Assembly (NCBI GenBank): GCA_017654855.1
Contig: CM030335.1
Location: 1,240,001 to 1,304,000, forward strand
DNA length: 64,000 nt
From: Podospora anserina
Taxonomy: Eukaryota
Direction of reading: 5' to 3'
Shown: positions 22,755-61,767 of the stretch, in pieces
Layout of the letters: each line of letters begins with the position of its first letter
Numbering within the stretch: the stretch's first letter is position 1
The notes under the pieces: generated by a model
Databases searched by the model: none
Told to the model about the DNA's origin: nothing
Seen by the model: only the letters and a program-made list of their open reading frames with translations
Program-made: the position numbers and the translations under genes

Positions 22755-24612
22755 ACGTGCATGATAAGCGAGCGCCGCAGATAAGCGAGCGCCGCACTTT
22801 TCGACGCGACCTAACTCTCTACCTTTAACATTCCATTTCTGAACTAAAAACTATGTTTTCTACCTTTAACGAAGCTAGAGTAATTCTGGCCGCTAAAGTT
22901 ATAAAAAATAATAAAAACCTAAGTAAACGAGCCGCAGCGAAGATCTATAAAGTTAATAATAAAATTATTTGCCGTCGACTTACCGATATACTTATACGAC
23001 ATAATACTTTAATTATTTCGTATAAACTTACGGATTTAAAAAAAAAACGATTATTTAATATATAATTAAGTTATCTATACGCGTATTTTATTCCCGGCTT
23101 TTATATATAAAAGATATAACTAATCGATTATTACGCGAACGTAACGCGCCTCCTATTAGCGTACGATAAGTTTATAATTTTATTAAATATTAGTTAGAAT
23201 TTCGGACGTGTTTTATATATAAATAGAATTACTAGAGGGCTAAATATAAGGATTTAAAGGTTATTAGTAAGTAGTTTACTTTCGTACGGAATACTAAAGT
23301 TAAATATAGTATCGTAAATAACGATATTTATAATTTTAATAAAATTAGGTTTATAATAAGTATTATCGTTACTATTATAATTATTATAATTTTTAATAAT
23401 TATAATAAAGTTAAATAAGTTTAACTTAATAATTATAAGTAAATTATAGTTATTTAAAACGTAAATACTTTAAGTTAAACTATTTTATTATTTATTATTT
23501 TAATTAAATAATATTATTTTATTAATTAATATTAAAAGTATAGCCTTCCGGCTATTTAACGTATTATAATAATCGATAATAATTAAATTATTAATAAGAA
23601 AAATATAAATTAAATTCAGTACTTTAATTTCTATATAGTATTTCGTACGAAAGGTAAATATCGGTTATTAATCTTTAACGGCTACGAGAGCTACTACTCC
23701 GAAAAATTCGAGACCTATTATTAGGAGTATAAGATTATTATATTATATATATCTCCGTACTCCTCCTATATATTTTAACTATTAAATATTAATTATTTTA
23801 CGTTATTAAAGGAGGTATATAGCCGCTAAATTAAATAATTAATATAAATAAATATTATATATATTAATAAATTAAAGTTTCTTTATATATTTAAAGAAAC
23901 GTTTTTTACTTCGATTATAGAAAAAAATATCCAGGAAGGTTTTACTAGAGCTAGCCTTATACCGTATAATCTAGAAAAGGTAATATTTAAGCTAGATATA
24001 TATATTCGGACCCCAATACCCCCAGCTTTAAGCCTAACTACGGTACTACCTTAGGTCTCTTAAACGCTATATAACCCTCGAAAGGTTATTTTATAATTAA
24101 CGTTTATTAAAATTCGAATTTCTAACTATTAAAATAGCTCTCTAACCTTAATACTAACCGCTATAAATTAATTTATTAAGGGAGTAATAAGTATAATATA
24201 CGAGGTAGCTCTTCTCCGTACAAAGGTCTCTTCGCTACGTAAAGCTAATAAGGAGCTTAGTAAAAAACGGAAAGCTAAAAAAATATGTGTGCGGCTTAGA
24301 GGGTCACTTACTATACAAGAGGCACAGGATCTACTAGATCAAAAGGCTAGGTAAGCAGGTAGCCCAGGAAATACAATAAAGTGGTGGTGGTACAGGGGGG
24401 TCTCGTACGAAGATTCGGTGCTGTAGCGTATACGGTAAGCCTGGCTATAATACACGTATATATTAGGAGGCTATAGAATTATTTAATTTATTTATTTCTA
24501 ATTCAGTTATCGTTATTTCCTAGTATTATGGTTGTATAATTAAGGATAGCTATGGTAGGATAGTAGAAAGTGCGGCGCTCGCTTGTCTGCGGCGCTCGCT
24601 TATCATGCACGT
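22755..24612 (+). mobile_element. Fot1/Pot2-type (pogo, Tc1-mariner) DNA transposon, RIP-inactivated
   Basis: TA TSDs; TIRs ACGTGCATGATAAGCGAGCGCCGCAGA(T/C)AAGCGAGCGCCGCACTTT; decayed transposase 22853-24523 (LSKRAAAKIY HTH, LIFNGYESY = decayed LILDGHESH). Confidence 0.93.
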
Positions 24613-25041
24613 TATACAAATACACTATTAGAAATTAAGAAGATGAATATAAACTGGGATATTTAAAAATAATTTATAGTTTTACAGGGTAGATTTATAA
24701 TAGTTTCATAATGAGTAGGTTTAAAAAAACAAATACCGGGGTATTATATAAAAGATAGAGATAGTAACCTTAAATATTAATAGGATAATAAAGTAAAATG
24801 TAAATAAGAAAAAGCTATACAAAAAAGACTATTTCTCTATTATATATAAAAACTGACTGATATAAGTTATTAAGATAATAGTTAGGAAAATAAAGTATTA
24901 ATATAATAATAAACCCAAATAAATTTAAAGAAAAGAGTTGATACTTATTGTACTATAAAAACTAAATAACCTATATAATCTAAAAATTATATTACCTTAA
25001 TCTTAAAAAGCTAGTGGTTATTGATTATTGAATGAATATTC

Positions 25042-26701: not shown

Positions 26702-28312
26702 ATTAACTATGCGAGATATTTCTGTATATTGTAATAATGAATTAGCAACATTTTCTTTCATTAATCTTATATATCTTTAAAAGTTTTACTTTCTTGTCTA
26801 GCTTAATTGAAGATTGAAACTTTACATTTGATTAAACTAATTCAAATTTTTATAATATTGCTGATTCTTTAATAACTTGGAAATCATTATAAATCTCTTT
26901 AAGCTAATCTCTATTTAACTATGAGTCTGAAGCTAAAATATAAGGAAACTACTAATATAAATCTCATTAAAAGTAATTATTAATAACTAGGCCTTTAACT
27001 ATTGATGCAACATAATTTTTAACTTATACAGGTTTCCTAACTTCTAAAACGTAAAAACTTTAATTTTTAATATAAAATGATATTTGATATAATGAAGTAT
27101 AATTATATAATAAATGATATGTTGTTTCTACTATTTAATGATTTATTATATTAATAGCTTTTTAATAAGAAACATATAATACTACTCATTGAAATATTCT
27201 AACACTTTACTACTTGTTTTTAAAATTACCATTTTCATAACAAGCAAACCTAATATTCTCCTCTTTTATATTATACCCCGGCTTTTTGTTTCTTGAACAC
27301 TATTCATTAATATTAAGATATGATTTGTAAAGGTTTAACTAACTAGGAGCCTACAAAAAAGGAGCCACTTTATAAAGTAAGATATTTTAGGGCTATAAAT
27401 ATATTATAATTAATGTTTTAGATATCAACAGTAATTTCTATATATTTATCTTTCTATTATTACTAGATTGTCACAGTCAAGCTAACGGGCAGGGTGGACC
27501 GTGTGCGGGGTACGACACGCACAGCCTATCGCTAGTAGAACTGATCAGGACGGGAATGGCCTCACCTATATGATCATTGCCAAGAGTCAATAATCTAGCG
27601 CGGGATTATTGCTAAAGGTTAATAATCCAGGGCAGAATCATTACTAAAGGTTAATAATTTAGGCGATTACTAGGTCTACATATACGGAGAAACTGGATGG
27701 TACAAATAAATAGTTCCTTAATATATAATATAAATTATAATCGTTAATATCTAAACTATTATAATTACAACAAGCTATTTATTATATACTACTTAATTAT
27801 ATTAAACTATGTGACGAACCCGTATCCAGAACCTCTGAAAAGGATACTGGTTAATAGCACTTCTAAATAATCCTAGTTTGGTACAGCTAAATAATATACA
27901 ACAAGTAGCTTATCTTAATTATAATAGTTAAGATACTAACGATTATAACTTATATTACATACTATGAAACTATTTATCTATACTAGCTAGTTTCTCCGTA
28001 TATATAAACCTAGGGACCGTGGACCGTTAATTTATAAACGGTCATCAGTTTACTCCTGATTAGCCGATACTAGACCATGGACCGTGAGCCCCGCCGCAAT
28101 CCCCGGTCCCTATTTATTAGTCTATTCTATTTACTTAAATCGTAAGTCCCGCTCCGTCGCCCGGTTTAGTCCTAATTAATTTCTTATAGCCTTACTATTT
28201 TTTAAAACTGTAATATATACTCCCTTTCCAGGCTGAAGTTCTCACGGCTAAGTTTTTATTTTTATTAATAATATTATAAGTTTTTCTTTTTTACTTTTTT
28301 TTACTTTTTATT

Positions 28313-28967
28313 ATATTTAACTATATATAGAAACGTTATTATAAAATTGAAGAATTTTTTCTTTTACCTTGTAAATCGTTTACTATAATTCTACTATAAT
28401 ACTTTATTCTATCTACTTTACCGCCGGAATCCTTTATATTATAACCTCTAAACTTTTATAATATTTTAAATATATACGTGATAAGATTCTATATTATAAG
28501 TTTAATATTAACACCGCCTCTAACTATATTTTTCCGTCTTTTTCTACCGCAATTTATTACTCTATAGTAACCTGAGCAATAGAAAAGTAAAATAGATTCG
28601 AACGTAAAGAGTAAATAAAAGCTTAAAGATTAACTTTTAAAATTAATTATTAAATTTATTCGGGTAAAATAAATATATTACTTTCTCCGTACTTGCGACA
28701 AGCGTTTTTTTTCGCGGGATATCTAGGAGGAAGATACTTAAGTAGCGTAGTCCGTAATTATAGTATTATTTAATTCTTTACCGGGTACTCCTACGCGGCC
28801 GGACGGCGCCTGAAATATTAGCCTGTAATCTTCTTACGTTCCGGACCTTTCTTTAAGCTTTAACTAACCTTCCGACCTTTCCTTCGATCTTAATATAGCC
28901 GGTTTCTTCCTTCCTACCTATATAAGGCACCGCTGGTAACGTACCTTTTATTGCTTAAAGTAATTAA
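28313..28967 (+). pseudogene. Antisense accessory ORF of element X: Zn2Cys6-like cluster, coiled coil, acidic/aromatic tail
   Basis: 28405-28497 reads Y-x2-Y-x6-Y-x8-Y-x2-Y-x6-YY (TAY = RIP product of TGY Cys); tail PDLSLSFN*PSDLSFDLNIAGFFLP; ends approximate. Confidence 0.7.
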
Positions 28968-29009
28968 AGTGTATAACGTTAACTATACTTAAATTCCTTT
29001 ATACTTTCC

Positions 29010-29083
29010 AACCTCGTAATATAATATATAATATATTAATTATTATATCGAAGGTATAGATAGGTTCGATTCCCGTCGAGGTT
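29010..29083 (+). ncRNA. tRNA-like element (antisense) in element X
   Basis: 74 nt; AACCTCG/CGAGGTT acceptor-like stem; intact B-box GGTTCGATTCC at 29063-29073; A-box position RIP-degraded. Confidence 0.6.
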
Positions 29084-32000
29084 CTCCGAATTTTAAGTTT
29101 ATAGAAACCCTTTCGTAAACTTAAATACATTCTTTTTAATTATCCTATTAATAATATATTTTCGAAATTTTTTATAGTAATTGAAGTACATGGTATTAAT
29201 TAAACCTAGGTTCCTTCTTTTTTTATTAACCTCGTAGTATAATCTATAATACGTCGTTCACTCAATTAAAAGCGTAAATTCGATTCCTATCGAAGTTTTA
29301 TATGTAAATATTGGTTTTTTATTCAAATTATTTTCGGTATTACTAGTAAAAGTCTTTCTATTTATTGAAATAATTAATATTCATTTCCAGTTTCTATAAA
29401 CTATTTATAACAGAATATTTTAATTAATTAACTAAATATTTTTATTTATCTTTATTAAATTATAAAATTAACATTTTTTATATCGGGGTTTTTTGTCGTT
29501 TTTCGATACTTTTGACGTATTAATTTTATTTACCGGTAATACGGATTTTAAAAGTAAAAAATAAAAAGTATATAACCTTAAATATATTATATTAAATAGC
29601 TTGAATTGAAATACCGTTTCCGATATCTTTCATTTAACCTTAAAAATCTTATTTTTTTATAATTTTTTTTTTACTAAATCTCTTAATATAAATATTATAT
29701 ATAGAAAGGAATATTATATCTCTCCCTTTAAAGCCAGGTCCCTCGAGTTTTTTAGTATTATAATATTTCCGTATCTTTTTCTTTATAAACTCTAATTCAT
29801 TTTAAACTTCCCGTAAAATATATATAATGTATTTACTTTAACCTTAATCCTAAATACTCTAACGTTAAGTCCCTACGATAAGTCTACTTTATATTTAAAA
29901 TTTACGAAAAATAATGTAACTTTATTTATTTTTCCTAATAACATATTATATATTGATTATATTATAAATACTAATTTAACTGAATACGTTTACTCGAAAT
30001 TAATATCATTCCGTAAATACTGTTCTATAATTTAATTAAACCGTTCCGTTTCATTATTTATTTAAAGGTAATGAACCGAAAATACTTTACTTATTATCCT
30101 TAACCTCGTTATTAATGCTTTTTAAAAATTTTAATATAAACATGGTATCGAGGTTTATGATAATTTCCTTTCATTATGTATATATGATTATAATATACCG
30201 TAATATTATATCCGTTAATTCCTTTACCGATTAAATTTTCTTATAAAGTAAAAAGTATGTTTCTTTAGTAAATCTATCAATTATTATTACTTATCTCTGT
30301 ATTTAACGTTAGTTACTATATTTTTAGATTTTAATAATTATTAATAAAGTTTATAGTAATTAAACTCTAAGATTGTTCCGCCATTAATAATAATTTTAAA
30401 AATCTAAAAGGCTTATACTTTATAATCCTTATTTTTTTATACGTATATAGTAGTACAAATAAATAACCTTTTTAGCGTTATTTTTAATTCTTAATTAATT
30501 AAAGTATTATTTAAATGTTTCTAGATTCTTTATAATACTTATATATTTTTCAAGTTTCGACCCGTAAATTTTTATTATTAATATTATTTTATTATTAACT
30601 TTACATACGTTTGATTTTTATACTATAGTTTTCTTTAATTACTTTTTTCACATATTTTATAATTTTAACCTTTTTTATTAATGTTACTTTATGATATTAT
30701 TATTTAATTTCCTTTAATAATTGTCAAAAATATTTTCTTTATAATATAATATATAATACTTTATTTACGGTTAAAGCAAATATTAAAAAATATCTTTTAA
30801 CGTTTCCTTAAGTGATAATGGTAATTTCTTAAATATATTTTTATAACAATTAGCTCTCTGGTTATATACGTTTGCCCTAATATTCTCCGAATCTTTTTTA
30901 TCATTAATTTAAAAATTAAATTCCAAAAGAGATTTTAATTAATATATTTACCATACGTTAAAAGTCTTTATAATAATTAAGTATCGTAGGTTCTAATAAT
31001 TTATATAGACCTATACTGTATAATTAATATTATTAAAGTGTAGCCTTTACTTTTCGAGCTTTTCGATAATAATAAATGTTTTTTTCTTATAAACTAAATA
31101 GCTTTAACGTACCCCCTTTAATTCTTTTTAAAAAGAATTATCGGGTATAACTTTTTATTCATTATTTTATTAACTTAATCATTTACCGATCGTATAATTT
31201 AATATATTAACCTCGACTTTGAATCGTCAATTAGGGTTTAGTAATTTAAGAATTAAAGTTTTTAATAAATTTTTTAAGCTCTTGAAAGACTTACTTTTCT
31301 TCTTACCCCCACCGGAACTCTATATTCTTTTTGATCAAATAATGAAATAATTACGAAATCCCCGCGTACCCCCGGATAAATATCTAATAAAAATTTATAA
31401 ACTTTAATTCTTTTAACATATATCTATAATTATAATATGAATTAATTTTGATTCATTATAATTCTTTTAAATTTCATATAAATCTCTCTTAATAATACTA
31501 AATATTTAAATATACTATTATTTATATATAAAATTCGCTCTTTTCTTATTATTCAAAAGTCTAGCTCCGTATAGCGTATTAGATATTTTCCGTACGTATC
31601 GCCTATATTTCTTTCAAGTACATAAGTAAATAAAACTATTATTAAATAATATATCATTATTTTATTAAGGTATATCCGAAGTATATAAATAGTAAAAAGT
31701 ACAAATATTATTAATGATATTAATTAACTGGAATAGTATTATAAAGTATTTAATACAATTATAAGGTGATTGAAATATTATTTTTTATTTATTTCTTTTT
31801 TTAGTTTATATATAAATATATTTAACACGTATATTTAAATATATCAAACATTCTGTTTTAACTAATTAACTCAGTAATATAAATATCAATAATGATAAGT
31901 AAATATTTTCTACTATTTTATTATTTCATTAATACTAATTTATATATAGTTTTAGATTACTATCCTTCTTCGTTACGAAAAATATAGGGTATCTTACTAG

Positions 32001-34997
32001 CGATATAGATTCCTTAATATATCCTTTCTTTAAAATTTATTTCAATTTTTCTATAACTCTTTATTTTACTTATCTTTAATTTCATAAATCTAAAATAACT
32101 ATAGTTTAATTCATTTTTTTAATTAAATTTCGTAGTCTTATAGTCCTCGCTTTAAAAGTCCCTTTGAATAATTAGCTGTAAAAATTCAATATTTTCGGTA
32201 TTCTACCGGTACTGCTTTTTTCTCGCTTTTTTCGATACTATTATAGTAAGTATATTTACTAACATTCGATATTTTTACTAACGTTAATAATCTTATTCCT
32301 TCAATTTTACTGCCTATGTTAATAAAGTATATTATTATTTTTTATGTTCTTTACGGTAATACTATAACGGGTATTTATTTATTTTATCCTTTAATCTATG
32401 TATATTCCTAATCTCTTATCGTTAATTAATTACTTTCAAAATTCTTTTGGTTGTAAGTAGCTACTATCCTTCTAATTAATATCCAAATTATGATTTTGAT
32501 ACTATAATTACCTTAAAAGTTTATCTTTTGAGGGTCCTATATTTATAATATTAAATATAATTAAAATTATTTTCTTTTAAATATAATATTTAGAAATAAT
32601 ATTTTTCCAGAAATTTTTTATATTGGCTATAGTCTTGATATAACGATTTATTTTTTATAGTATTTTAGTTTTAATATACGAATTATAATAAAATTGAATT
32701 TGTTTCTATGCTTTTATTTAATAATATTACCGCTTAAATATTTCTTAATATGTTGCAACGTGGAGATATTGGTTTTTTTTGCTTTCTCCTTATATGATAA
32801 AAATTTTATTAACGAATATTAAGTCGTTATCCTATACTTTCGCTTTACGCCGATATTTTGATAATATTATTTATAATATATTAAATGATATTAGGTTGCG
32901 CGAAGGGCAACGAGTCGTTTTTTAAGCGATTATATTATTTAAAAGCGTTTTTTTACTCTGGGTTATTTCATAATATAAAATTTTTTAATTACCCCTTTTT
33001 AATTTGCTTTTATTTTCCGTTTTTAGATTTTTTAATATTTTATTATATTTACATTTGATAGCGGTGCTTTTTTCAATTATCTCCGTAACCCATTTTATTT
33101 GATAATATTGATTAACTTTCTTTTGTTAATGTACTACGTAGTCCGGGCCTAAGTACTATTTTAATACCGCTCCTTCCTAAAAAAACTATATTATCGTCCG
33201 TATTCTTACTATCCGTATACTCCGAAGTAGTAGCTCGTATACTTTAAAGCTAACTATATTACCAGAAACCTATTCTTTAATTTAACCGGGTCCTGAACCT
33301 TCTATAAGAAATAGTTATTTAGGTTTTCGTACGCTCTTTCCTGTTTAACTATAATCTTTTTAACCGGCTATGGTTTACCCTCTTTAGTTACTTCACGTAC
33401 CGGCTAATAACTATATAGTAATTTACCTTAAGAATACTTTATATATTAATATATAATATATTAAAATTAAATGTACCCTTGGGTATTCCGGATATGAAAA
33501 TAAATTTATATTACAATTTTTCTTAAGGTATATACTATATAAAGATAAGTATATCCCCTAACCGTTTCGAGATTTTAACATTCATAACTTTCTTATTTTC
33601 TTTATATTCCTTTTTATACTTTTATATATAAGCTTTATAAATTATTCTTACGAAATAATAATTTTATATTTATTGTGTTACTTCTTTAGTATCGTTTACA
33701 GGGTAGGTCCTCTTTACTATATAAGGTTATTATTTTTAATAATTTCCGTAGCAATTTCTATAGTAATTTATATTAATCCATTTTATATACCTATGTTTAA
33801 ATCTTTCTCTTCATACTCTGCTTTTAGCCTTTCTATTACTTTTCGTAACTTTTAAATTTTTTCTTCATTCGGTATATTAACTAAAATCTTTCTCGAAACT
33901 TACTATTTTACTTTAATAATACCCGATAGTTATGACTTTATAATCCTTAGTCCTTTTAATATAATAATTCATATGATTTCTTTTTTTATTCGAATCGTTT
34001 AAATACCTTATAATCTTTTTTAAAGTCATTTACTTTACTATAATTAAAATACCCAAAGTTATTCCTACCTTAACACCGGCTTTATGGTTTTCATTATTAA
34101 ATAGCGTTACCATTTATTTGTTTTAAATATATAATACTAAAGTAATTAATATTAAATCATTCCAACTTTCGTTTATTATTAAATTAATTATTAAAGTATT
34201 CTTTATTATTATTACCATAGTAACTTTAATTATTTTTTTTCTTCCGTATAACGTTAAATTTAATGATCGTTAATTGACATAATTATAGTAATATATTTAT
34301 TAATAATATTAAGCTTCAACTCTTTATATAATTTATTCTTTACCTTTTCTTTAAAGTTATCATAAAAGGTTATATTAGTCCCTCATTATTAATAGTATTA
34401 TATAAGCTATCGATTTTAAACAAAACTATATAATTAACCGTTGTACAGGTTTAGCATAGGTTTATAAAAAACCTTTATATATATTTTACCTTATTATATT
34501 TTTTAAATTTAACTTTAAAGATTATAACAACTTTCCAAATATTCTATAGTAATTCTTTTTCAGTCCTTTAACTCTTTTTTATAATAAATATTTAGGATAG
34601 ATTGGATTTATATGAAAGCTTTATCTTGAAGTTTAATAAACGCGAACATTATTTTCAATTCTTCGTTAATAAATTAATTTAGGTATTAACGAAAATAGGG
34701 TTTAAATTAAATTAAGAATTCTTTAAGATTTATATTTCCATCCTTATAGTATTTTAATACCGGAAAGTTAGGTATTACTTTAGGTACGGCCGAAATGATA
34801 ATAATTTATTTTTATTATTATTAAACTTTATTCTCGAGCTCGTGAAAGCGTTATTTTATAATAATAAAAGTAGGTTTAGTACTGGTAGAAGGTCCCTCGT
34901 TACCTAGGCTAGGCAGGACGCCTCCTATCTTAACGTTCTAAGATCCGGCTATAGTAATGAAAAAACGTTTTTAATTTATCTATAATAGAGTCAACGT

Positions 34998-35009
34998 CAG
35001 TATATAATA
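34998..35009 (-). promoter_or_regulatory. Self-priming-type primer binding site of element X
   Basis: TATTATATACTG directly after the 5' LTR is the RIP-altered reverse complement of the LTR core CAGTATGCAATA; Y has GTTGTATACT at 35428-35437. Confidence 0.65.
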
Positions 35010-38000
35010 TATAACGAACCCCTATCTAAAACCTCTAAAAGGAATATTAATTAAAAGTACGTTTAAATAATCCTAGTTCGGTATAATTAAATGGAATATG
35101 ATAAATAGTTTATATTAATTATAATAATTAAACCACTAACGATTATAATATATATTATATACTACGGAACTATTTATTTACACTAGCTAGGTCCTCCGTA
35201 TATATAGACCTAGGGACCGTGGACCGTTGACTTATAGACGGTCCTCGGTCCACTCCTGATTGGCCGATGCTGGACCGTGGACCGTGAGCCCCGCTCGATC
35301 GCCCGGTCCAGTCCTGATTGGTTCCTTGTGGCCCTACTGTCTTCCACAACCGTGACAAACTAGGATTATTTAAAAGTACCTTTAATTAATATCCCTTTTA
35401 AAGGTTCTAGATAGGGGTTTATTATACGTTGTATACTTACTTTAACTCTATTATAGTTAATCTAAAAGCGTTTTTTTATTACTATAGCCGCACTTAATAA
35501 TATTGAAATAAGAAATATCCCGCTTGATTTAAGTAACGAAGGACCTTCCACTATAATAATTAGATCTAATATTTACGTTTGCGAAATGGTTTATTAAACG
35601 CGTTAAAGACCTTAAAAGCAATATTTAGTGGATCCGGGATTAAATTACTATTATAATAATTATACTTGAATTGATACCTAAATTTCCAGTACTAAAGTAT
35701 TTATTTTAAAGGAAAAAAAGTAAAGTGTAAAAGGTTCTTAATTTAGTTTAAAACTTATTTTCGTTATTACTTAAATTAAGTTATTAACGAAATATTAAAA
35801 GTGATTTTCGTAGCAATTAGGGTTAAAGATAGAGCTTTTATATAATTGGAACTTATTTTTAACCACTATTATAAAGAGGAGGTGGAAAAGTAGGAAAAGA
35901 TTAGGGTTTAATACTATTATATTTTTTTAAACTAAGTTTAAAGAAATATTCAAGAAACATAGTAAAATAAAAATTATATAGGAAAGGCTCGTAAACCTAT
36001 ATTAAATACGTTTAATAGTAAATTATATAGCTGTGTTTAAAATCGATAATTTACGTAATATTATTAACGATAAGGGATTAGAACAGCTTTTTGATAATCG
36101 TTTTAAGGAAAAGGTAAAGGATAGGTTATATAAGAAATCGAGGCAGGATACTATCCATTAATATATTACTATAGTTATATAAATCGATGATCGGTAATTT
36201 TAATATTATATAAAAAAAGTAATTATAAAAATTAGTATAGCAGTAATGATGTTAACAATAAATATAAATGGTAATGCTTTAATATTAATTACTCCGGTAT
36301 TATTTATACAGGACTAATAGAAGTCGACGCTATATAGTAATAGAAGCTGTAAGGCCGGGATTAAAGTAAAGGTAACTTTATATAATTTGATTATAGTAAA
36401 GTAAAATATTTTGAACAGGATTATAATGTATTTAAACAATTCAGTAAAAAGAAATGAATTACGGTAATTACTATATTAAAAGGACCGAGGGTTATAAAGC
36501 TTATAATTATTAGGTACTAAAAGTAGTTTTAAATTTGAAGGAAGATTTTAATTAATATAGTAGATAAAAGAAAGCAGAGGTCCAGAAGGTACGGGAAGTA
36601 ATAGAAAAGATAAAGGTAAAGTATAAGAAAAGAGATTTTTCAATATATAAATTTTTAAGGAAATTACTACGGAGGTTATTAGAGACGATAGCCCTACATA
36701 ATAGTAAGGACTTACTTAGTAAATCATACTAAAGAAATAATACGAATCATAGAAAATAAATATTATAGCTCTAAAAACTTGAATATAAGAGATAAAAGGA
36801 ATTTTAAAAAACATACATAAGGTTATTAATATTAAAATTGTAAAACAAGGTACCGAAATAAAGTTAATTTTATTACAGTTCGTACATCAAATTAAAAGAC
36901 AATTATCAAAAAAGGAATAGATTATAATATAAGAACTATTTCCGATGTAAAAGGTTCATAGAGAAATGTTATTTGTAAATATTATAGCCGAAAGGAAAAT
37001 AATTCTGATTATATCTAATATTTCTAATATAGAACCTTCGAAAGACAGAATCCTAACGTCACTAGAATATAACAACTATCCTCTAAATATTAAAGGGATA
37101 GTAGCTATTTATAATTATGACAACCTTAAAAGCATTTAATTAACAATAGAACATTGAAAGTACGTATAAAGCAAAGTGTCGGATAAGTACCCTTTACAGT
37201 ACTACCGTAAAGAACCTGAAAAATAATAATATATGTTGTGAACATAAGCGGTAAAATTAAAGAAATATGGTTAACGACGTTAGTAAAGATATCGGAGGGT
37301 AATATATATATTTATTATAATAGAATAGAGAAAGGTGAGAAAAAGGTGGTACTAATAGAACATCGAGGATATTTAGTTTTTACGGTTAAATGTTTAAAGG
37401 GACTTTTAAAGCAGGGACCGTAGGAATACGAAATTAAGTTAAAAGAAGGCATTAAACTTTGACTATTTATGGTCTATTATATTAACGATAAGTAAAGTAA
37501 TGAATTACGGAAATACCCAATAAAAGATTTAAAGAAAGAATATACTATGGAGCTTATGTCGTTCATAAAATACCTTATATTTTTAGTGCCGAAGAAAAAC
37601 GGTAGTTTACGATTATATATAGATCATCATTAATTAAATAACGAAACGGTAAAAAATATGTACCCGCGACTATTAATACTTAAATTATAAAATCAATTAA
37701 TTAGGGCACGATACTTTATATATTTCAAAATATATACTAAGTACGCTTATATATAAATTAAGAAAAAGAACAAATAAACAATGGCGTTTTATATACCTTA
37801 TAATTATTTTAAATATTTTGTAATAGTATTCGAATTACTTAATATATTTATAACGTTTCGATTTTTTATTAATTATATAATTCCAAAATACTTTACTAGA
37901 ATAATAATATATTATTTTAATAACGGTTTTATTTATTCCTATACATTAAAAGAATATAAGTAATATATACGAAAGATAAAAAACGCGTTATATAAAACCG

Positions 38001-38298
38001 GATTTTCAATTAATAAAGAAAAAAACGAGTTTATATATAAAAAATAATATATTTAAAGTATTTAATATCATTAATTAAAGTATAAATAAAACTTAAGAAA
38101 ATCATAGTAATTAAGGATTAGCCTATACTATAATTATCAATATATAATAAAGAACTTTTAAGATTCGTAAATTTTTATTGAATATTTATCCGGAAATATA
38201 TAGGGATCGCGTAATTACTTAACTATTTGCCTCAAAAAACGTAGAGTTCCGGTAAAAGTAGGAAAAGGAGTAGGCCTTTTAAGAACTAAAAGAAGCTA

Positions 38299-40161
38299 AC
38301 GTGCGTGATAAGCGAGCCGAACAGACAAGCGAGCCGAACACTTTCCAACGCAGCGCAACCCTCCAACTTCTTTCACCAACTTTACCACCAATTCGCTATA
38401 AATTCACTTCCAACCGAATCTCGAATTATTTTAGCCCTCGAAGCTATCAAAAACGACCCAAATATTAGTCTTCGACGCGCAGCTAAGCTTTATAACGTAC
38501 CAATTACAACTCTCTATGACCGACGCGCTGGCCGGCTTGCACGACGCGATATGCCAGCCAACTCACGCAAGTTTACCGATTTGGAAGAGAAAACGATTGT
38601 TTAATATATTATTGAGCTATGTACACGCGTATTCCATCCTCGGCGTTCGTATGTAGAAGATATAGCCAATCGATTACTATGCGAACGCGACGCGCCTCCT
38701 GTTGGCGTACGATAGGCTTATAACTTCGTTAAACGCTAGCTAGAACTTCGGACGCGTTTTACGCGTAAATATAATTATTAGAGGGCCAAATGCGAGGATC
38801 TAAAGGTTATTAGCGAGTAGTTTACTTTCGTACGGAATACTAAGGCTAAGTACGGTATCGTGGATAACGATATTTATAATTTCGACGAGACTAGGTTTAT
38901 AATAAGTATTATTTTTACGGGTATAGTAGTTATAACTTCTAATAGCCGTAATAAGGCGAAACTAGCCTAGCCTAGTAACCGCGAATAGGTAATAGTAATC
39001 TAAAGAGTTAATACCCTCGGCTAAACTATCCCTCTTATTATTATTTTAATTACGTAATATTACTTTATTAACTAATATACTAAGTATAATTTACTATTTA
39101 CTTAGCGTATTATAATTATCGATAATAATTAGATTATTAATATAATAAGTTTAAATTAAATTAAATACTTCGATTATTATATAGCGTCCTATATAAAAGG
39201 TAAATACCGGTTATTAATCCTCGATAGTTACGAAAGTTATTACTCGACCGAATTTAAGTGTTATTACTAGTAAAATAATATTATTACGCTCTACATACCT
39301 CTATATTCTTTCTACCTCCTCCAGCTACTTAATATTAATTGCTTTAGGCCGCTAAAATAGGCGTACGGTCGCCAGATCGAGGACTTAATACGTATATATA
39401 TTAACTATATAAGTAAGCTCGAGTTCCTCTATACTTTCCGCGAAACTTTTTTCGCCTCTATAATAGAGAAGAATATATAGAGTAGCTTTATAGGTGCTAG
39501 CCTTATACCGTACGATCTAGAGAGGATACTTTTTAAGCTAAATATAAAGCTTCGTACGCTAATACCTCTAAACTTACGGCCCGGTACTATATAACCTTAG
39601 GTCTCCCAGATACTATATAACCCTCGAGAAACTAACTCACAGTTAACGCTCATTAAAACTCGCATTACTAACCATCAAAATAGCTCCCCGACTTCAATAT
39701 TGGCTACTATGGACCAGCTTACTATAAGTATAATGGCTGTGATGCACTAGGTGGCTCTCCTTCGTGCAAAGAACACTACACTCCGTAAGGCTAACGAGGC
39801 ACTAAGTAAGCGCCGGAGAGCCAAAAAAAACACGTATGCGGCTTGGAGGGTCACTTACTGTACAAGAGGCACAGGATCTACTGGATCAGAAGGCTGTAGG
39901 TGAGCAGGTAATCCAGGAAGATCGACAAAGTGGTGGTGGTGCAAGGGAGTCACGTCCGAAGATTCAGTGCTGTGGCGTGTGCGGTAAGCCAGGCCATAAT
40001 GCACGCACCTGCAAGGAGGCTGCAGAATCATCTGATTTATCTGTTTCTGGTTCAATTATTGTGGTTTCCTAGTATTGTGGTTGTGTAATTGAAGATAGTT
40101 GTAGTGGGGTGGTGGAAAGTGTTCGGCTCGCTTGTCTGTTCGGCTCGCTTATCATGCACGT
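38299..40161 (+). mobile_element. Fot1/Pot2-type DNA transposon inserted in pol of element Y
   Basis: TA TSDs; TIRs ACGTGC(G/A)TGATAAGCGAGCCGAACAGACAAGCGAGCCGAACACTTTCC; transposase ~38398-40072 with SLRRAAKLYNVPITTL HTH and CGVCGKPGHNARTC knuckle; many RIP stops. Confidence 0.95.
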
Positions 40162-42178
40162 TATTTTAAAAAAACCCGGTACATAAATTATTAAACTTTA
40201 ATCGACCGTTCGAGGTAGAGGCTAATTAATATCTTAAATTATACGATCGCTAAATGATTAGGCTAGCGAAATAGTAACGGAAAATGGTACTTAATACCTT
40301 TCTTTTCGAAAACATTAAAGAAAATACGTTAAAATTATTTAATTTATAATAAAGAACTATCTGTTACTATCGAAATATTCGAAAGGTAAAGGCTATATTT
40401 TAATAGTATTAATTACGAAATATAAATCTATATAAATTATAAAAACCTATAATGCTTTATTATTATAAAGGTTTTTATCGTACGGTAAACGCAATAACCA
40501 AAGTTTCTTTCGGAGTTCTTTTTTTAAATTAATTAAAAAAAGGTTCGGAAAATATTAGGGTAAACGTATTTAGCCGGCAAGCCGATTACTATAAAGATAT
40601 ATCTAGGAAAATACTATTATTATTTATAAAGATACTAACAGGTATTTTTTAGTATTCACTCTAGCTATAATAATGTATTATACAGAATATCGTACGTAAG
40701 TTACTTTAAATAAGTATTAAAGGAAATTAAGTAACAATATTATAGAGTAATATTAATAAGAAATATTAGAGCCGTAAAGTATTTAAAAAAATAATTAGGG
40801 AAAATTACAGTATAAAGATCGAGTGTACGTAAAGTTATGTAGCAAAACGTTATTAATTATAGAAACCTTTAGGTCGAAGCTCGAAGGGTATATAAATATT
40901 ATAAAGACTATAAAAAAAATTAAATAGTACTTTAATTAGTTAAGGATTTAAAATAACGTTAAAAAGCTATTTAGTTATACCATATGTAAAAAGAATAAGA
41001 GTTACGAAGTATAAGCTTTATATATTTTAAGAATTACTGCTAATAGCGGAACGACCATAAAATTTAATTATAATAAACCTTATTACTAAGTTACTAGAGT
41101 TAAGAGATAGAGTAATTATCGTTAAGTATAATAATTTATTAAAGGTAGTCGATAGACTTATCAAATAAGTATACTTCTTACCTACCCTATAAAGACACCT
41201 AATGGATAAAGCAATTAACAAATATAGTACTACAGTATATTATAGTAATATATATATAATTAAAGGAATTTATTTCGGACCGCGATATTAAATTTATATT
41301 AAAGTTTTAAGAAACGTTAATAACGAGGCAAGTGGTAATAAATAAGGCGTTTTCGGCTTATCACCTCTCAATAAGTAGTAAAATAAAATAATTGAACTAA
41401 AGTATAGAATATTATCAACGGAATTATATCATTTTTAAATAGGACGACTAAGTTAAACTATTATTTATAGTATAACTAATATATAATATATCGCTAATAG
41501 AGACGACTAAAATTATACTATTCTTTATAAACATTAAATATAAAGTCGACCTACGGTAAGGATTTAATATTAAGGTACCTAGAGTTCAAATTAGGGTAAA
41601 TTAGTTATATATATTCTATAGCAAACTTAAAGAAGAATTAAAATTTATAAGGGAATGAATACGAAAATACTATAATAGTAAAAAGTTTAAAGAACTTTAC
41701 TTTAAGGGGAAGGATATAGTATTCCTTTCTCTATATAATTTACGTATTAAGAGACTTAGTAAGAAGCTAAACTATAGGAGAGTAGACCTATTTAAGGTTA
41801 GAAAAAAATACCGGAAATAGAATTCGAATTAAAATTATTTAGTACGATACGTTTACAATTATATACCTTTTATATTTTACTTTCAAAACCTATACTACTA
41901 ATGAGTTAAATTAATACGTAAGAGGTAACGGAGGACGAAAAAAGAAATTTAAAATAGAAAACATATTAGATTTACGGTTTTATAAAGGATAATTAAAATA
42001 TTAAATTAATTAATTAAGATATCCGGCCATAGATAATTCGTAGAAATTAGCGGTAAATCTTAATTGCCTGAATAATCTAAAAGAATTCCACCTGTAATAC
42101 CTCAACCGATTAAAACTAATATAAGTAAAAGAAACGTGTTAAACTCTAAAGGAAAAGCTAAAGATTTTAAGATATAGG

Positions 42179-42249
42179 AACCTCGACGGGAATCAAATCT
42201 ATACCTTTAACGTAATAATCAACGTACTATATATTATACTATTAAAATT
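42179..42249 (-). ncRNA. tRNA-like element (antisense) in element Y
   Basis: Minus strand TAGTATAAT..TATTACG..AGATTTGATTCCCGTCGAGGTT, homologous to the X copy, B-box RIP-damaged. Confidence 0.5.
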
Positions 42250-42289
42250 AAGAAATACCTAGGGACTATTATATAATTAACGTTATATA

Positions 42290-42881
42290 TTAACTTCCCT
42301 AAGTAGTTAGTAGAGCCTCGTCGGTAATATTTTAACTAGCTAGGAAGAAAAGACCGGCCACATTGAAATCTAAAAGAAAGTCGGAAGGCCAGTTTAAATT
42401 TAAAAAAGGATCTAGAAATAAAAAGTCGGAACTGAGGGTCATAGAAGACACCGCAGTAAAATAATCCCGAAGAAAAACGGAACGAATAAACTCCTTTTTA
42501 CATTTAGTTTTTTCTAACTCCTCTACACTATCGAAACCACAAAAGACGGCTCACGATATTTGCTCTAACTGAGCTTTTTTTAAATAACGACAACGACGGA
42601 CCCTAACGTAAGTTACTTCGGTGAGTTCCTCGGCCTTTTTTAATTTAGCTTCGACGGTATCGTACTAAAAGATAATTTTAAAAAGCTAATCAAAAGGTTT
42701 ACATAAAGCGTCGTAATAAAGTAAAGTCTCCACGAATATATTTATCGTAATATAAAAAATTAAAAGAGAAAAGGACGTAAAAAAGATTATAGGAAATATA
42801 TACGGAGTAAAATAAAGGTATCGTAAATAAATCATCGAGGTTTTTTCTATGAAGCTTTATCGAGCAAACGCTTTTAAATAT
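42290..42881 (-). pseudogene. Antisense accessory ORF of element Y (~197 codons)
   Basis: Y-x2-Y-x6-Y-x9-Y-x2-Y, then a frameshift; VEAKLKKAEELTEVTYVRVRRCRYLKKAQLEQIS*AVFCGFDSVEELEK; tail DPFLNLNWPSDFLLDFNVAGLFF. Confidence 0.75.
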
Positions 42882-45800: not shown

Positions 45801-46179
45801 TATTTATTCTATATTGCGGAACTATCTATTTATACCAGGCAGTTCCTCCGTATATATAGATTTACTAATATTCGAAATTCTTAACTTTTAACAATAATGC
45901 CTTTCTAGAATATTAACTTTTAATAATAATCCCGCACTAAATTATTAACTGTTAATAATAATCCTATAAGTAAAGCCATTCTCTATCCTAATTAAAATTA
46001 TTAATAACTAACTATACGCATTATATTCCGTATACGGTCCGTCCTACGTATAAATATAGTTATAATATAATACCCTTCTTTTTAGGTTAAAGTCCCGTCG
46101 ACTTAAGTCCTAAAATAACCGTTTATTACCTATCTTTCTCTTCCTATAAATATTCCGCTTACCTTTCTTTATTTTTTAC

Positions 46180-46793: not shown

Positions 46794-46832
46794 TATGCAA
46801 TATTAATTTATGTCGGTCCCTATGTATTTATT

Positions 46833-46900
46833 AATTTTTTAGTGCAATATATACTACCTGCTATTACGTTAGAAGCGCGGCTTTAATTTCCGTCGAGGAT
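46833..46900 (+). ncRNA. Degraded tRNA-like element in element W
   Basis: TAGTGCAAT..CTATTACG..GCGCGGCTTTAATTTCCGTCGAGG at the homologous position. Confidence 0.45.
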
Positions 46901-47901
46901 TTTTTATATTTAGATTGATAAATATGATCCATAATTCAAGCGCAGATATTTTTATCTCTATTGGTTTTAATCGGTTTAAATATTATTAATAGAATTCCTT
47001 TTATTTATCAAGGTAATTTAAATTTACCGTTATTTTTAACGAGTTATTTATACTTAAGTAACCTAATTAACTATTTAAACATTCCAACTAACCTTTATTC
47101 AATTATAAATTTAGTATTTCCTCTATATTATATTTCGTTTCTTCGTCTTCTACTATTTCCTTAATATTAACTTTACTTACCGGTACTATGGGTTTTAAAA
47201 GTAAAATATAAAGGGCATATAACCCTAAATATACTATACTAAGTAGCTCTAGTTCGAATGTTATTTCCGATATCTTTCTCTTAACTTAAACTAAACCTAC
47301 TTTTTTATAATTTAACTTTTTATTAAGTCTTTTAATACGGAAATTACATATAGAAAAGAATACTATATCCTTCCTTCCAATGTAAAGTCCCTCGAGCTTT
47401 TTAATATTATAGTATTCCATATCCTTTCTCCTATAAACTCTAATCTTTCTTTAAACTTTCACCAAAATATGTATATTTTACTTCCTTTAATACAAACCCT
47501 AGGTACCTTTATATGAGGTCCTTACCGTAGATTTATTTTATATTTTAAGTTCACTAAAAATAACGTACCTTTCGTTATTTTTATTAGTAATGTATTTAGG
47601 TTAATTATACTATAAGTAATACTTTAGTTTAATTATTTTAATGAAAATTAATATATTCCCGTAAACATTATTTTATAATTTAATTAGGCTGTTCCGTTGA
47701 ACTATTTTTTAAGGATAGTAAACCGAAAACGCTTCACTTACCCCTTAACCTCATTATTAACGCTCTTGAAAACTTTAAGATAAATTTAATATTACGGTTC
47801 GTAAGAAACTTTTTTACTTATAAATATATTACGAAAATATAATATAATACTATAACCATTTACTATTTTTCCAACTAAGTCTTTTTGTAAGGTAAAAGTA
47901 A

Positions 47902-48107: not shown

Positions 48108-48150
48108 TAACCTAAAATCAATAATTAGGTTTATGTTTGCTCCAACGTTA

Positions 48151-48555: not shown

Positions 48556-48560
48556 CGTTA

Positions 48561-54213: not shown

Positions 54214-55458
54214 AAAGACTATAGAAAAAAAAATAATACTTTAATTTACTAAAGATTAAGCACATGTAAAAAAAATGAAAGGTTATAAAAGATAAGGTTT
54301 ATAAATCTCTAAAGCTACTAATAATAGCGGAACGAAAATAAAGTTTAATTACGATAGACTTTACTATTAAATTATTATAATTGAAAAAATGTAATAACCG
54401 GCGTTAAATATAATCATATTCTAATAATAATCAATAAGTTTACTTAGTAAACGTGCTTTTTACCTTTTAATGAAAATTAGTTTGTAAAATAATTAACGGA
54501 TAGAATGCTATTATAAATTATAATAATATATATATATCAATAAAGGAGCACATGACGGACCGTGATATTAAATTCGTATTAAAATTTTAAAAAATTCTAT
54601 TAATAGAGTTAAGGATAATGAATAAAGCGTTTTCGGCTCATTACCTCTACATTAATTGTTAGACGGAACTGTTTAATAAAACTGTAAAATAATATTCACG
54701 GAATCACATTAACTTTAACTAAACCGATTAAACTAACTTATTATTTACGGTATTATTAATATATAATATATTATTAATAGAGACGATTAAAGTTATACTA
54801 TTTTCCGTACACTTTAAATACAGAGTAAACTTAAGATAGGGACCCAATATAGTGGTTTGTAGGGTTAGGCTTAAAGTAAGTAAATTATATATATTTTATA
54901 GTAAATTTAAGGAAAAATTAAAGTTTATAAGGAGAGGATACGAAAATACTATAATATTCAAACAATCGAGGGACCTTACCTTAAGGAGAGGGATATAATA
55001 TCCCTTCCTATATATAATTTATATATTACAAAACTTGGCAAGAAGCTAAACTATTGGAAAGCAAGCTTATTAAAAGTTAAAAGAAAAATATCGGAAATGA
55101 TATTTACATCAAAACTATTTAATATAATATTTTATAGTAATATACCTTTTATATTTAATCTGCAGAACATGTATTAATGGTAGATAAAGTTAATATAAAG
55201 GAAGTAGCGGAGAATGAAAAAAAAGAAATATAATATAATAAAAAGCATATTAGATTTACGATTTAATAAAACTTAATTAAAATATTCAACTAATCAACTA
55301 GAATATTTAATTATTAATAGTTTATAGGAACTAACGGTAACCCCTAATTTTCTAAATAAATGGATAGAACTTTACCGATAATATTTAAACGGACTAAAAT
55401 AATATAAATAAATTAAATATATTAAAAATTTTAAAAATTAAAATCTTAATACTCTAAA

Positions 55459-55527
55459 AACCTTGACGGGAATCGAACCCTCGCCTTTATCGTAGTGGCC
55501 GGTATATTACGTTTTATACTATAAAGC
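55459..55527 (-). ncRNA. tRNA-like element (antisense) in element Z
   Basis: Minus strand GCTTTATAGTATAAAACGTAATATACCGGCCACTACGATAAAGGCGAGGGTTCGATTCCCGTCAAGGTT; intact B-box at 55469-55479. Confidence 0.6.
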
Positions 55528-55579
55528 TAATAAAAATACAGAAAATACAGGTATAATTAACGCTATATACCTTATTTAC

Positions 55580-61733: not shown

Positions 61734-61767
61734 TGAAAATATTAACTTTCTTGTGGTTCTATTATAC

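What the first reader, a model, noticed from the sequence alone, without database searches (positions are those of the whole stretch)
29010..29083. Conserved tRNA-like element between pol and the antisense ORF
Seen: at the same position in all four copies (29010-29083 +, 42179-42249 -, 46833-46900 +, 55459-55527 -) is a ~70-74 nt unit. It has an acceptor-like stem (AACCTCG/CGAGGTT in X), an A-box-position TAGTRYAA and a T-arm GGTTCGATTCCCGT, intact in X and Z. Three copies have YTACG at the anticodon position, but the anticodon stem pairs poorly. It lies ~40 nt downstream of the accessory ORF stop and on the same strand. Positional conservation makes it an integral part of the element, not an independent SINE insertion. 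The element appears to self-prime, so a primer role is unlikely. Possible roles (inference): an RNase P/Z cut site ending the antisense mRNA before it overlaps pol (mascRNA-like, limiting dsRNA), a Pol III/TFIIIC barrier, or a Pol III small-RNA unit.
Basis: partly seen in the sequence, partly recalled or inferred. Interest (0 to 1): 0.8.

Follow-up and report, generated by a model that had tools for sequence, protein, structure and literature searches.

The report
tRNA-shaped unit inside fungal retrotransposon
A decayed family of fungal jumping genes carries, always at the same spot just behind its polymerase gene and on the opposite strand, a complete tRNA-shaped sequence that could not decode, and it may be a borrowed signal for the cell's tRNA machinery.

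Summary
The unit is real and tRNA-derived. It occurs five times, not four. The fifth (29228-29298) comes from a 218-bp tandem duplication in one copy. All 4 of 4 element copies that keep the pol 3' end carry it, antisense to pol, and the window holds no free copy. Rfam's tRNA model matches 3 of 5 units full-length but below threshold (19.6-24.5 bits, cut-off 29). The exact B box occurs twice against 0.03 expected.

Moving its 3' strand by one column raises pairing from 39% to 74%, giving a full cloverleaf with a 6-nt anticodon loop, so it is a non-decoding tRNA mimic.

The host element is a Tf1/Tf2-like Ty3/gypsy retrotransposon with ~406-bp LTRs, destroyed by RIP-like C:G-to-T:A decay. The unit and a 180-nt block upstream of it are as conserved as pol. 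The spacer beside it and the ~600-nt region towards the LTR are much more diverged.

The "antisense accessory ORF" is not supported. Function is inferred only. I favour a tRNA-gene-like Pol III/TFIIIC module. An RNase P/Z processing signal and a neutral passenger remain open. No whole genome, RNA data or relatives could be examined.

The parts
29010..29084 (+). tRNA-like unit, copy W (first of a tandem pair). Acceptor stem pairs 7/7, B box is exact, and there is a 4-nt insertion in front of the T stem.
   Evidence: Rfam tRNA 24.5 bits, positions 1-71/71; model R1 79.3 bits; B box match.
29228..29298 (+). It is the second member of a 218-bp tandem duplication in copy W.
   Evidence: Rfam tRNA 24.0 bits, 1-71/71; R1 83 bits; flanks align with the other copies.
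42178..42248 (-). tRNA-like unit, copy X.
   Evidence: R1 84 bits; no Rfam tRNA hit at E<=10; aligned in A4.
46833..46901 (+). tRNA-like unit, copy Y (this element is truncated at about 47897).
   Evidence: R1 74.1 bits; no Rfam tRNA hit at E<=10; A4.
55458..55528 (-). tRNA-like unit, copy Z. It has the fewest C-to-T/G-to-A changes (13 of 71 positions) and an exact B box.
   Evidence: Rfam tRNA 19.6 bits, 1-71/71; R1 79.2 bits.
28831..29009 (+). Conserved ~180-nt block directly upstream of the unit in copy W. Equivalents: X 42250-42423 (-), Y 46641-46832 (+), Z 55529-55694 (-). It is pyrimidine-rich on the unit's strand, carries CCTTCCGAC 2-3 times, a TATAACGTTA palindrome, and a TTAATTATA-like string ending about 23-25 nt before the unit.
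   Evidence: Transversions 0.102 per site, the same as pol; alignments; flanks.
29084..29150 (+). Poorly conserved spacer between the unit and the end of pol similarity. It is about 75 nt in X, Y and Z and shorter after the second W unit.
   Evidence: Transversions 0.244 per site; 25 of 58 ungapped columns carry a transversion against 8 of 68 in the unit, p = 8.7e-05.
28230..28830 (.). Variable region of about 600 nt between the polypurine tract and the conserved block. It is close to unalignable among W, Z and X/Y.
   Evidence: Transversions 0.249 per site; pairwise 0.22-0.30 except X-Y at 0.10; no open frame beyond chance; no meaningful Pfam hit.
27810..28215 (-). 3' LTR of copy W (406 bp). 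On the + strand it reads TGTGACG at one end and a RIP-altered form of CGTGACA at the other. A polypurine tract on the pol strand follows at about 28216-28229.
   Evidence: LTR alignment with two solo LTRs and the W 5' LTR; coordinates.
29343..33600 (-). pol of copy W (integrase and RNase H parts were identified). It is riddled with stop codons.
   Evidence: RT_RNaseH_2 E 2.4e-05. The integrase part matches P0001 at E 2e-07, and P0001 carries RVT_1, RT_RNaseH, Integrase_H2C2, rve, SH3_Tf2-1 and Chromo.

Best explanation
The unit is a copy of a tRNA gene that became a fixed part of the 3' untranslated region of a Tf1/Tf2-like Ty3/gypsy retrotransposon family. It lies on the strand opposite to pol, a few dozen bases past the end of pol and about 800 bases before the polypurine tract and 3' LTR. 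It keeps all four cloverleaf arms, but its anticodon loop has six bases, so it could not decode.

Mechanism I commit to (inferred, not shown). It worked as a tRNA-gene-like module.
1. TFIIIC binds the perfect B box and the partial A box.
2. TFIIIB sits on the TATA-like string about 25-30 nt upstream.
3. Pol III makes a short tRNA-like RNA, antisense to the element's 3' UTR, that ends at the T-run just after the unit.
4. The intact acceptor and T arms let RNase P and RNase Z trim it.

The benefit to the element is the least certain step. It would come from the bound TFIIIC/Pol III complex (a chromatin barrier, or a roadblock just past pol) or from the small RNA itself. All five copies in this window are now dead from RIP-like mutation.
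For: SHOWN: tRNA origin and shape.
- Full-length sub-threshold Rfam tRNA matches in 3 of 5 units.
- Cloverleaf pairing of 78.6% of cells against 38-45% for slid controls, with helices at 80, 95, 74 and 68%.
- A RIP-corrected column call pairs 7/7, 4/4 and 5/5 in the acceptor, D and T arms, and 5/5 in the anticodon stem in the shifted register.
- ARAGORN calls that corrected version as a 71-nt tRNA with a two-base 'anticodon' at 95% of its thresholds, while 0 of 300 shuffles are called even at 80%.
- The 21-nt T-arm/acceptor string recurs in real tRNA genes: 89 of 125 metagenome matches are ARAGORN tRNAs.

SHOWN: promoter-type features.
- Exact B box in 2 of 5 units against 0.03 expected. The other three differ from it only by C-to-T or G-to-A changes.
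- A TAGTATAA-type A-box half without any transversion.
- A TTAATTATA-like string ending 23-25 nt upstream in all five, and a run of 4 or more T beginning within about 25 nt after the unit in all five.

SHOWN: fixed position. 4 of 4 element copies carry it and the window holds no free copy.

SUGGESTIVE: constraint. 8 of 68 ungapped columns carry a transversion in the unit, against 25 of 58 in the adjacent spacer (p 8.7e-05) and 215 of 466 in the variable region. The unit does not differ from pol (153 of 894) or R-U5 (14 of 199).

PRECEDENT. tRNA- and 5S-derived Pol III promoters inside LTR elements are described for Helenus, Ajax and Cassandra (PMC10886601; I read the abstract, Results part 1 and the Discussion).
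Against: - There is no RNA evidence of any kind and no ChIP data.
- No copy has GG at the D-loop position, so the second half of the A box is missing.
- T-runs and TATA-like strings are cheap in DNA of 25% GC made T-rich by RIP.
- Five degraded copies give no covariation (shuffle control).
- The four element copies are star-like in pol: 13 of 894 columns show any 2:2 split. The unit's conservation could therefore reflect recent common ancestry rather than selection, and only the spacer contrast argues otherwise.
- A stand-alone Pol III gene does not explain why 180 nt upstream are equally conserved.
- A head-on Pol III complex would also hinder the element's own full-length transcript.
Confidence: 0.4

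Rival explanations
1. RNA processing signal. A Pol II transcript antisense to the element's 3' region runs through the conserved 180-nt block, and RNase P cuts it at the 5' end of the tRNA-like fold. This gives a non-polyadenylated RNA that stops before it overlaps pol.
For: - The features RNase P and RNase Z need are the ones best kept. The acceptor helix pairs in 80% of cells and the T helix in 68% of raw cells; both pair fully in the RIP-corrected call.
- The decoding loop is spoiled (6 nt).
- The block just upstream on the same strand is as conserved as pol, as would be expected for the 3' end of a functional transcript.
Against: - No open frame beyond chance and no meaningful Pfam match between the LTR and the unit.
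- About 600 nt of the supposed transcript are unalignable between lineages.
- The last ~23 nt before the unit are pyrimidine-rich, not the A-rich tract next to U-rich motifs that stabilises MALAT1 and NEAT1 ends (the MALAT1 anatomy is recalled and was seen only in passages of PMC13541005).
- No promoter was identified and no RNA data exist.
Confidence: 0.17
2. Neutral passenger. A tRNA gene, tRNA pseudogene or short tRNA-derived SINE was captured once by an ancestral element, through insertion or template switching, and has been carried along since without any role.
For: - Full tRNA copies inside a gypsy element are on record: cqgypsy_1 of Culex has two tRNAs at its primer-binding site (PMC3286476, section 'Osvaldo lineage' read).
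- Helenus is proposed to arise by SINE insertion into an LTR (PMC10886601, Discussion).
- The unit is no better conserved than pol (p 0.31) or R-U5 (p 0.30).
- It has taken indels in 3 of 5 copies.
- There is no covariation.
Against: - The neighbouring spacer, in the same backbone, carries about 3.6 times more transversion columns (43% against 12%, p 8.7e-05).
- All 8 transversion columns in the unit are private to single copies, with none shared.
- All four arms still pair in the corrected call while the flanks have turned over.
Confidence: 0.27
3. Sense-strand role. On the genomic RNA the unit is the complement of a whole tRNA, in the same orientation as a primer-binding site, and it is followed directly by a long purine-rich tract. 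It could anneal a host tRNA, acting as a second priming, packaging or tRNA-capture site. It could also be the relic of a read-through copy of a primer tRNA.
For: - The orientation equals that of a primer-binding site.
- The adjacent block is purine-rich on the pol strand, with polypurine-tract-like strings.
- cqgypsy_1 shows that full tRNA copies can arise at a primer-binding site (PMC3286476).
Against: - The unit is about 6 kb from the 5' LTR and about 800 nt from the 3' LTR.
- The three bases after the discriminator fit a RIP-altered CCA in only 2 of 5 units.
- The exact tRNA consensus motifs (B box) lie on the antisense strand.
- No host tRNA with this sequence could be looked for, because no genome is held.
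Confidence: 0.08
4. Chance resemblance in AT-rich repeat DNA.
For: Every Rfam score is below the family cut-off, and ARAGORN at default settings finds nothing.
Against: - B box: 2 observed against 0.03 expected.
- 16 of 16 pairs in three arms of the corrected call, against a per-pair chance of 0.40.
- 0 of 300 shuffles are called as tRNA.
- The model boundaries are the same in three units.
Confidence: 0.02

Closest known systems
Helenus / TRIMp3 (with Cassandra and Ajax): LTR retrotransposons carrying a small-RNA-gene-derived Pol III promoter (Kojima 2024, PMC10886601)
   Same: A tRNA-derived sequence with conserved A/B-box regions is built into an LTR retrotransposon. It is judged unlikely to encode a working tRNA. 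The group is also found in fungi.
   Different: In Helenus the tRNA-like part lies inside the LTRs of short (311-1263 bp) non-autonomous elements and is thought to drive their own transcription. The fungal cases are in Pucciniales and Agaricomycetes and depend on Copia elements. Here the unit is internal, 794 nt from the LTR, antisense, and sits in a ~7.5-kb pol-bearing gypsy element.
cqgypsy_1 of Culex quinquefasciatus (Osvaldo lineage; PMC3286476)
   Same: Complete cloverleaf tRNA copies lie inside an autonomous Ty3/gypsy element.
   Different: There, two tRNAs with CCA ends sit head to head at the 5' LTR/primer-binding-site boundary in a single element, and its relatives lack them. Here there is one unit without a clear CCA, past the 3' end of pol, present in every copy seen.
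mascRNA / menRNA modules at the 3' ends of MALAT1 and NEAT1 (anatomy recalled; abstract of PMC12941219 and passages of PMC13541005 seen)
   Same: A tRNA-shaped fold with a defective anticodon arm, suited to RNase P/Z cutting, lies downstream of a conserved block on the same strand.
   Different: Those are vertebrate lncRNAs with U-rich motifs and an A-rich tract forming a triple helix right at the cut site. No such tract is seen here, and no upstream transcript is known.
tRNA-derived SINE heads (SINE2)
   Same: A tRNA-derived A/B-box unit followed by a short tail, of a kind that could have inserted once into an ancestral element.
   Different: SINEs are dispersed and have target-site duplications. 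SINE heads usually lose acceptor-stem pairing (recalled). Here the stem is complete, all five copies sit at one fixed place in the element, and none is free in 64 kb.

Membership tests
tRNA (Rfam RF00005) | Score at or above the family's gathering score (29 bits) | tested here: not met
   Best scores are 24.5, 24.0 and 19.6 bits. Two of the 5 units give no hit at E<=10, and the whole window gives none at gathering threshold.
tRNA (Rfam RF00005) | Four-arm cloverleaf | tested here: met
   78.6% of 103 cells pair, against 37.9-44.9% when partners are slid. Helices pair at 80, 95, 73.9 and 68%.
tRNA (Rfam RF00005) | Seven-base anticodon loop with a readable anticodon | tested here: not met
   The stem pairs only with a 6-nt loop. 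ARAGORN reports a two-base 'anticodon'.
tRNA (Rfam RF00005) | GG in the D loop (positions 18-19) | tested here: not met
   None of the 5 units has GG there, and RIP-type reversal does not give it (alignment A4).
tRNA-type Pol III promoter | B box GGTTCGANTCC | tested here: met
   Exact in 2 of 5 units. The other three differ only by C-to-T or G-to-A changes.
tRNA-type Pol III promoter | Transcription by Pol III and binding of TFIIIC | not testable with these tools
   No RNA or ChIP data could be reached.
tRNA-derived SINE | Dispersed free copies with their own target-site duplications | not testable with these tools
   No genome is held. Within the window 0 free copies were found. Duplications would in any case be blurred by RIP.
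Helenus / TRIMp3 | tRNA-like sequence located inside the LTR | tested here: not met
   The W LTR is 27810-28215 and the unit starts at 29010.
Helenus / TRIMp3 | Short non-autonomous element without pol | tested here: not met
   The element is about 7.5 kb and has RT_RNaseH and integrase remains.
mascRNA-like 3'-end module | U-rich motifs plus an A-rich tract directly upstream of the tRNA-like fold | tested here: not met
   The 23 nt before the unit are pyrimidine-rich in all 5 copies. A short purine-rich string lies about 42-55 nt upstream, not at the junction.
mascRNA-like 3'-end module | Upstream Pol II transcript cut by RNase P | not testable with these tools
   No RNA data.
Primer-binding site | Lies next to the 5' LTR and is complementary to a tRNA 3' end including CCA | tested here: not met
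   The unit is at the other end of the element. The 30 nt after the 5' LTRs show no match to any unit above shuffles, apart from 2 of 15 comparisons that exceed the 95% level by one base.
Ty3/gypsy, Tf1/Tf2-like (the host element) | RT-RNase H and integrase of the gypsy type, flanked by LTRs | tested here: met
   RT_RNaseH / RT_RNaseH_2 hits. The integrase part matches P0001 at E 2e-07, and P0001 has RVT_1, RNase H, H2C2, rve and SH3_Tf2-1. LTRs shown.
Chromovirus (host element) | Chromodomain at the end of integrase | tested here: inconclusive
   A chromodomain-like motif can be read by eye in the X-at-stop translations, and the best library match has a Chromo domain. However, Pfam finds none in 4 of 4 copies, and BLASTP against P0001 does not align it.

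The most novel reading that the evidence does not exclude
An autonomous fungal LTR retrotransposon lineage has turned a non-decoding tRNA mimic, together with the 180-nt block upstream of it, into a cis-acting 3'-UTR device that recruits the host tRNA machinery. One form would be a TFIIIC/Pol III roadblock or barrier placed just past pol. The other would be an RNase P-made end for an antisense RNA, making it a retrotransposon counterpart of MALAT1-mascRNA outside animals.
Probability: 0.15. Interest if true: 0.75.

Novelty: new variant of a known kind. Interest (0 to 1): 0.45.

Why it matters
tRNA-derived modules in LTR elements are so far described in the LTRs of tiny non-autonomous elements, or as one-off copies at the primer-binding site. 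A fixed, internal, antisense and structurally complete but non-decoding tRNA mimic in a pol-bearing family would be a new arrangement.

If it is functional, it would show a retrotransposon using Pol III/TFIIIC or RNase P/Z for its own regulation. That is directly testable wherever intact relatives exist.

On the practical side, such units can inflate or confuse tRNA and SINE annotation in RIP-affected fungal genomes.

My searches of the held library found no description of this arrangement. Subscription journals and supplementary files were not visible.

Tried and rejected
- Whole genome: none is held.
- SRA search: 20 rows from 6 studies hold 0.89-0.99 of the sampled words (5 rows are flagged as a possible source). 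No RNA holder is listed. This is not evidence on expression.
So there was no copy census and no RNA look.
- Metagenome scan with the unit's T-arm/acceptor string: only ordinary tRNA genes (Arg-CCT 57, Glu 25, Asp 4, Arg-CCG 3; 36 of 125 matches not called). I looked only at ~120-nt windows around each match, and none was followed up as a retroelement. RIP-tolerant scoring could not assign an isotype (group means 61-67, overlapping).
- RNAalifold on block plus unit: -10.2 kcal/mol and no cloverleaf, so it is uninformative on RIP-degraded copies.
- Rfam on the upstream block: only chance-level rows.
- Pfam on the LTR-to-unit region: nothing meaningful; one Rep_N row at E 0.23.
- Pfam on the chromodomain region: nothing.
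- BLASTP of that region against P0001: no alignment.
- Codon-phase test of substitutions: showed little even in pol. I consider it invalid, because indels scramble the phase.
- Self-priming check: inconclusive.
- PBS-to-unit complementarity: nothing above shuffles. My slice for copy W started 8 nt too far in.
- The listing of cluster members for P0001: no name.
- Tycowski et al. 2016 (PMC4864102): not held.

Full report
SETTING.
The window has a gene-like part of about 52% GC (1-21.5 kb) and an AT-rich part (22-64 kb, 25% GC). The AT-rich part has RIP-type dinucleotide indices: TpA/ApT is 1.23 and (CpA+TpG)/(ApC+GpT) is 0.58, against 0.66 and 1.27 in the genic part. The usual thresholds for these indices are recalled. 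Self-comparison and LTR alignment resolve a nest of one LTR retrotransposon family:
- Copy W, about 27810-35345, pol on the - strand.
- Copy X, about 35358-43370, pol on +, abutting W head to head with both 5' LTRs cut short.
- Copy Y, 45658-47897, pol on -, truncated.
- Copy Z, about 47898-56727, pol on +, with solo LTRs nested at 48151-48555 and 53814-54213.

The LTR is about 406 bp in W (27810-28215). On the unit's strand it reads TGTGACG at one end and CGTGACA at the other, and a polypurine tract abuts it on the pol strand.

Pfam sees only RT_RNaseH and RT_RNaseH_2 in X-at-stop translations. The integrase part of W finds 14 library proteins at E<=0.001. The best, P0001 (E 2e-07, 25% identity), carries RVT_1, RT_RNaseH, Integrase_H2C2, rve, SH3_Tf2-1 and Chromo (6 of the 14 were scanned). 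The element is therefore a Tf1/Tf2-like Ty3/gypsy retrotransposon. A chromodomain in the window copies can be read by eye only and is not confirmed.

THE OBSERVATION.
The unit exists at the four stated places. A fifth lies at 29228-29298, 218 nt from the first, with matching flanks. It is a tandem duplication inside W.

Rfam's tRNA model aligns end to end (1-71 of 71) to three units at 24.5, 24.0 and 19.6 bits, below the cut-off of 29. The X and Y units give nothing at E<=10. ARAGORN and Rfam at gathering threshold report nothing. The B box GGTTCGANTCC is exact twice, against 0.03 expected.

A covariance model built from the five units and run over the whole window without filters scores them at 74-84 bits. 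The next match scores 27.6 bits and overlaps a known unit. So there are no further copies and no free copy in these 64 kb. All 4 of 4 element copies that retain the pol 3' end have the unit, always on the strand opposite to pol.

THE FOLD.
While checking a RIP-corrected column call against slid partners, I saw that the anticodon stem pairs 5 of 5 when its 3' strand is moved by one column. On the raw alignment this register gives 73.9% for that helix. The whole cloverleaf then pairs in 78.6% of cells, against 37.9-44.9% for slid versions.

The consequence is a six-base anticodon loop and a four-base variable loop. ARAGORN agrees. It calls the corrected version as a 71-nt tRNA of unknown type with a two-base anticodon at 95% of its thresholds, though not at default. 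It of 300 shuffles even at 80%.

The raw units differ from that corrected call by 13-24 C-to-T or G-to-A changes and by 0-5 other changes. There is no covariation beyond shuffles, as expected for five copies whose stems are being eroded by one-directional mutation. RIP can also mimic compensation by turning C-G into T-A.

No copy has GG in the D loop. The unit is thus a structurally complete tRNA mimic that could not decode. Its isotype could not be assigned. The T-arm/acceptor string is shared by Arg, Glu and Asp tRNA genes in metagenomes: 89 of 125 matches were called as tRNAs.

SURROUNDINGS.
On the unit's strand the order is:
1. LTR.
2. Pyrimidine run (the polypurine tract on the pol strand).
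3. About 600 variable nt.
4. A conserved block of about 180 nt.
5. The unit.
6. A spacer of 25-75 nt.
7. The end of pol, in antisense.

Transversions per aligned site are insensitive to RIP. Their values are:
- R-U5: 0.036
- unit: 0.058 (95% bootstrap interval 0.021-0.100)
- block: 0.102
- pol: 0.084-0.102
- spacer: 0.244
- variable region: 0.249
- U3: 0.236

By columns, 8 of 68 in the unit carry a transversion. This compares with 25 of 58 in the spacer (p 8.7e-05), 215 of 466 in the variable region and 153 of 894 in pol (p 0.31 against the unit). All 8 are private to single copies.

This makes the unit plus block a conserved island, like the LTR end with its polypurine tract, set in fast-changing non-coding DNA. 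There is a caveat. The copies are star-like in pol (13 of 894 columns show any 2:2 split), whereas U3 and the variable region show lineage structure (31 of 179 and 39 of 466 columns split W,Z against X,Y). The 3' module may therefore have been swapped by recombination, and part of the unit's conservation may be plain recent ancestry. Only the spacer contrast argues for constraint, and that spacer is AT-rich and indel-prone.

THE 'ACCESSORY ORF'.
I could not support it. No frame on either strand has fewer stops than the 5% quantile of shuffles. The best case is 10 stops in 228 codons in X, where the 5% quantile is 9. The longest open run is 82 codons in Y, where the 95% level of shuffles is 81. 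There is no meaningful Pfam match. The region is near-unalignable between lineages. The shared 'frame' over the last ~40 codons follows from DNA conservation of the block and reads equally well on the other strand.

WHAT IT LIKELY IS AND DOES.
Shown: it is a tRNA-gene copy fixed in the element's 3' UTR in antisense. It keeps the features used by the tRNA machinery and has lost decoding. Those features are:
- a perfect B box;
- the first half of the A box;
- complete acceptor, D and T arms;
- a TATA-like string about 25-30 nt upstream;
- a T-run downstream.

Inferred: it acted as a Pol III/TFIIIC-bound tRNA-gene-like module whose short product is trimmed by RNase P and RNase Z. What that gives the element is open. 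It could be a barrier, a roadblock just past pol, or an antisense small RNA.

Rivals:
- An RNase P/Z end-maker for an antisense Pol II RNA. This fits the intact acceptor and T arms and the conserved upstream block, but it lacks the transcript, the ORF and any A-rich/U-rich stabiliser.
- A neutral passenger from a single capture.
- A sense-strand tRNA-annealing site. The orientation matches a primer-binding site and a purine-rich tract follows, but there is no clear CCA complement (2 of 5 units fit after RIP reversal) and the place is wrong.

A primer role for the unit's own RNA finds no support.

COMPARISON WITH WHAT IS KNOWN.
The nearest described class is Helenus/TRIMp3: tRNA-like Pol III promoter sequences in the LTRs of short non-autonomous elements, found also in fungi (PMC10886601; abstract, Results part 1 and Discussion read). 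The location and non-autonomy criteria of that class are not met here.

cqgypsy_1 of Culex shows that whole tRNA copies can sit in a gypsy element, but at the primer-binding site and in one element only (PMC3286476; one section read).

The mascRNA comparison holds for the shape of the fold and fails for the upstream triple-helix motifs.

I found no paper describing an internal, antisense, fixed tRNA mimic in an autonomous LTR element. Supplements and subscription journals were out of reach.

VERDICT.
This is a real, ancestral, tRNA-derived part of the element and a new arrangement of a known theme. Function is unproven, and every copy at hand is dead.

Noticed in passing
38294-40184 (nested in copy X); also 23028-24615 and 63183-63986: A pogo/Tc1-like DNA transposon remnant (HTH_psq plus DDE_1) interrupts pol of copy X. 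Two further partial copies lie elsewhere in the AT-rich block. Its GC (about 40%) is higher than that of the surrounding retroelements.
   Followed up: partly
60682-61741: A tandem array of a 9-nt unit (TAAATAAAA), about 118 copies with 95% matches.
   Followed up: no
48151-48555 and 53814-54213: Two solo LTRs of the same family, 87.6% alike over 403 bp, are nested in copy Z. One sits just after its 5' LTR and one inside pol. Both are in the orientation opposite to Z.
   Followed up: partly
about 35345-35358: Copies W and X meet head to head with both 5' LTRs truncated (about 335 bp and about 70 bp left). This suggests a deletion or recombination between inverted neighbours.
   Followed up: no
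28831-29009 and equivalents in X, Y, Z: The conserved block holds CCTTCCGAC repeated 2-3 times about 44 nt apart, a TATAACGTTA palindrome, and a ~10-bp long-range inverted repeat (AAACYTTAAYTA with TARTTAAGG) that RNAalifold pairs in all four copies. Its role is unknown.
   Followed up: partly
LTR U3 and 28230-28830 against pol: U3 and the variable 3' region group X with Y and separate W from Z, whereas pol is star-like among the four copies. This hints at recombinant (mosaic) 3' modules within the family.
   Followed up: partly
48380-48494 and the matching part of the other long LTRs: The U3 part of the W-type LTR contains a ~58-nt tandem duplication rich in GGACCGTG and GAGCCCCGC motifs, and is unusually GC-rich for this region.
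   Followed up: no
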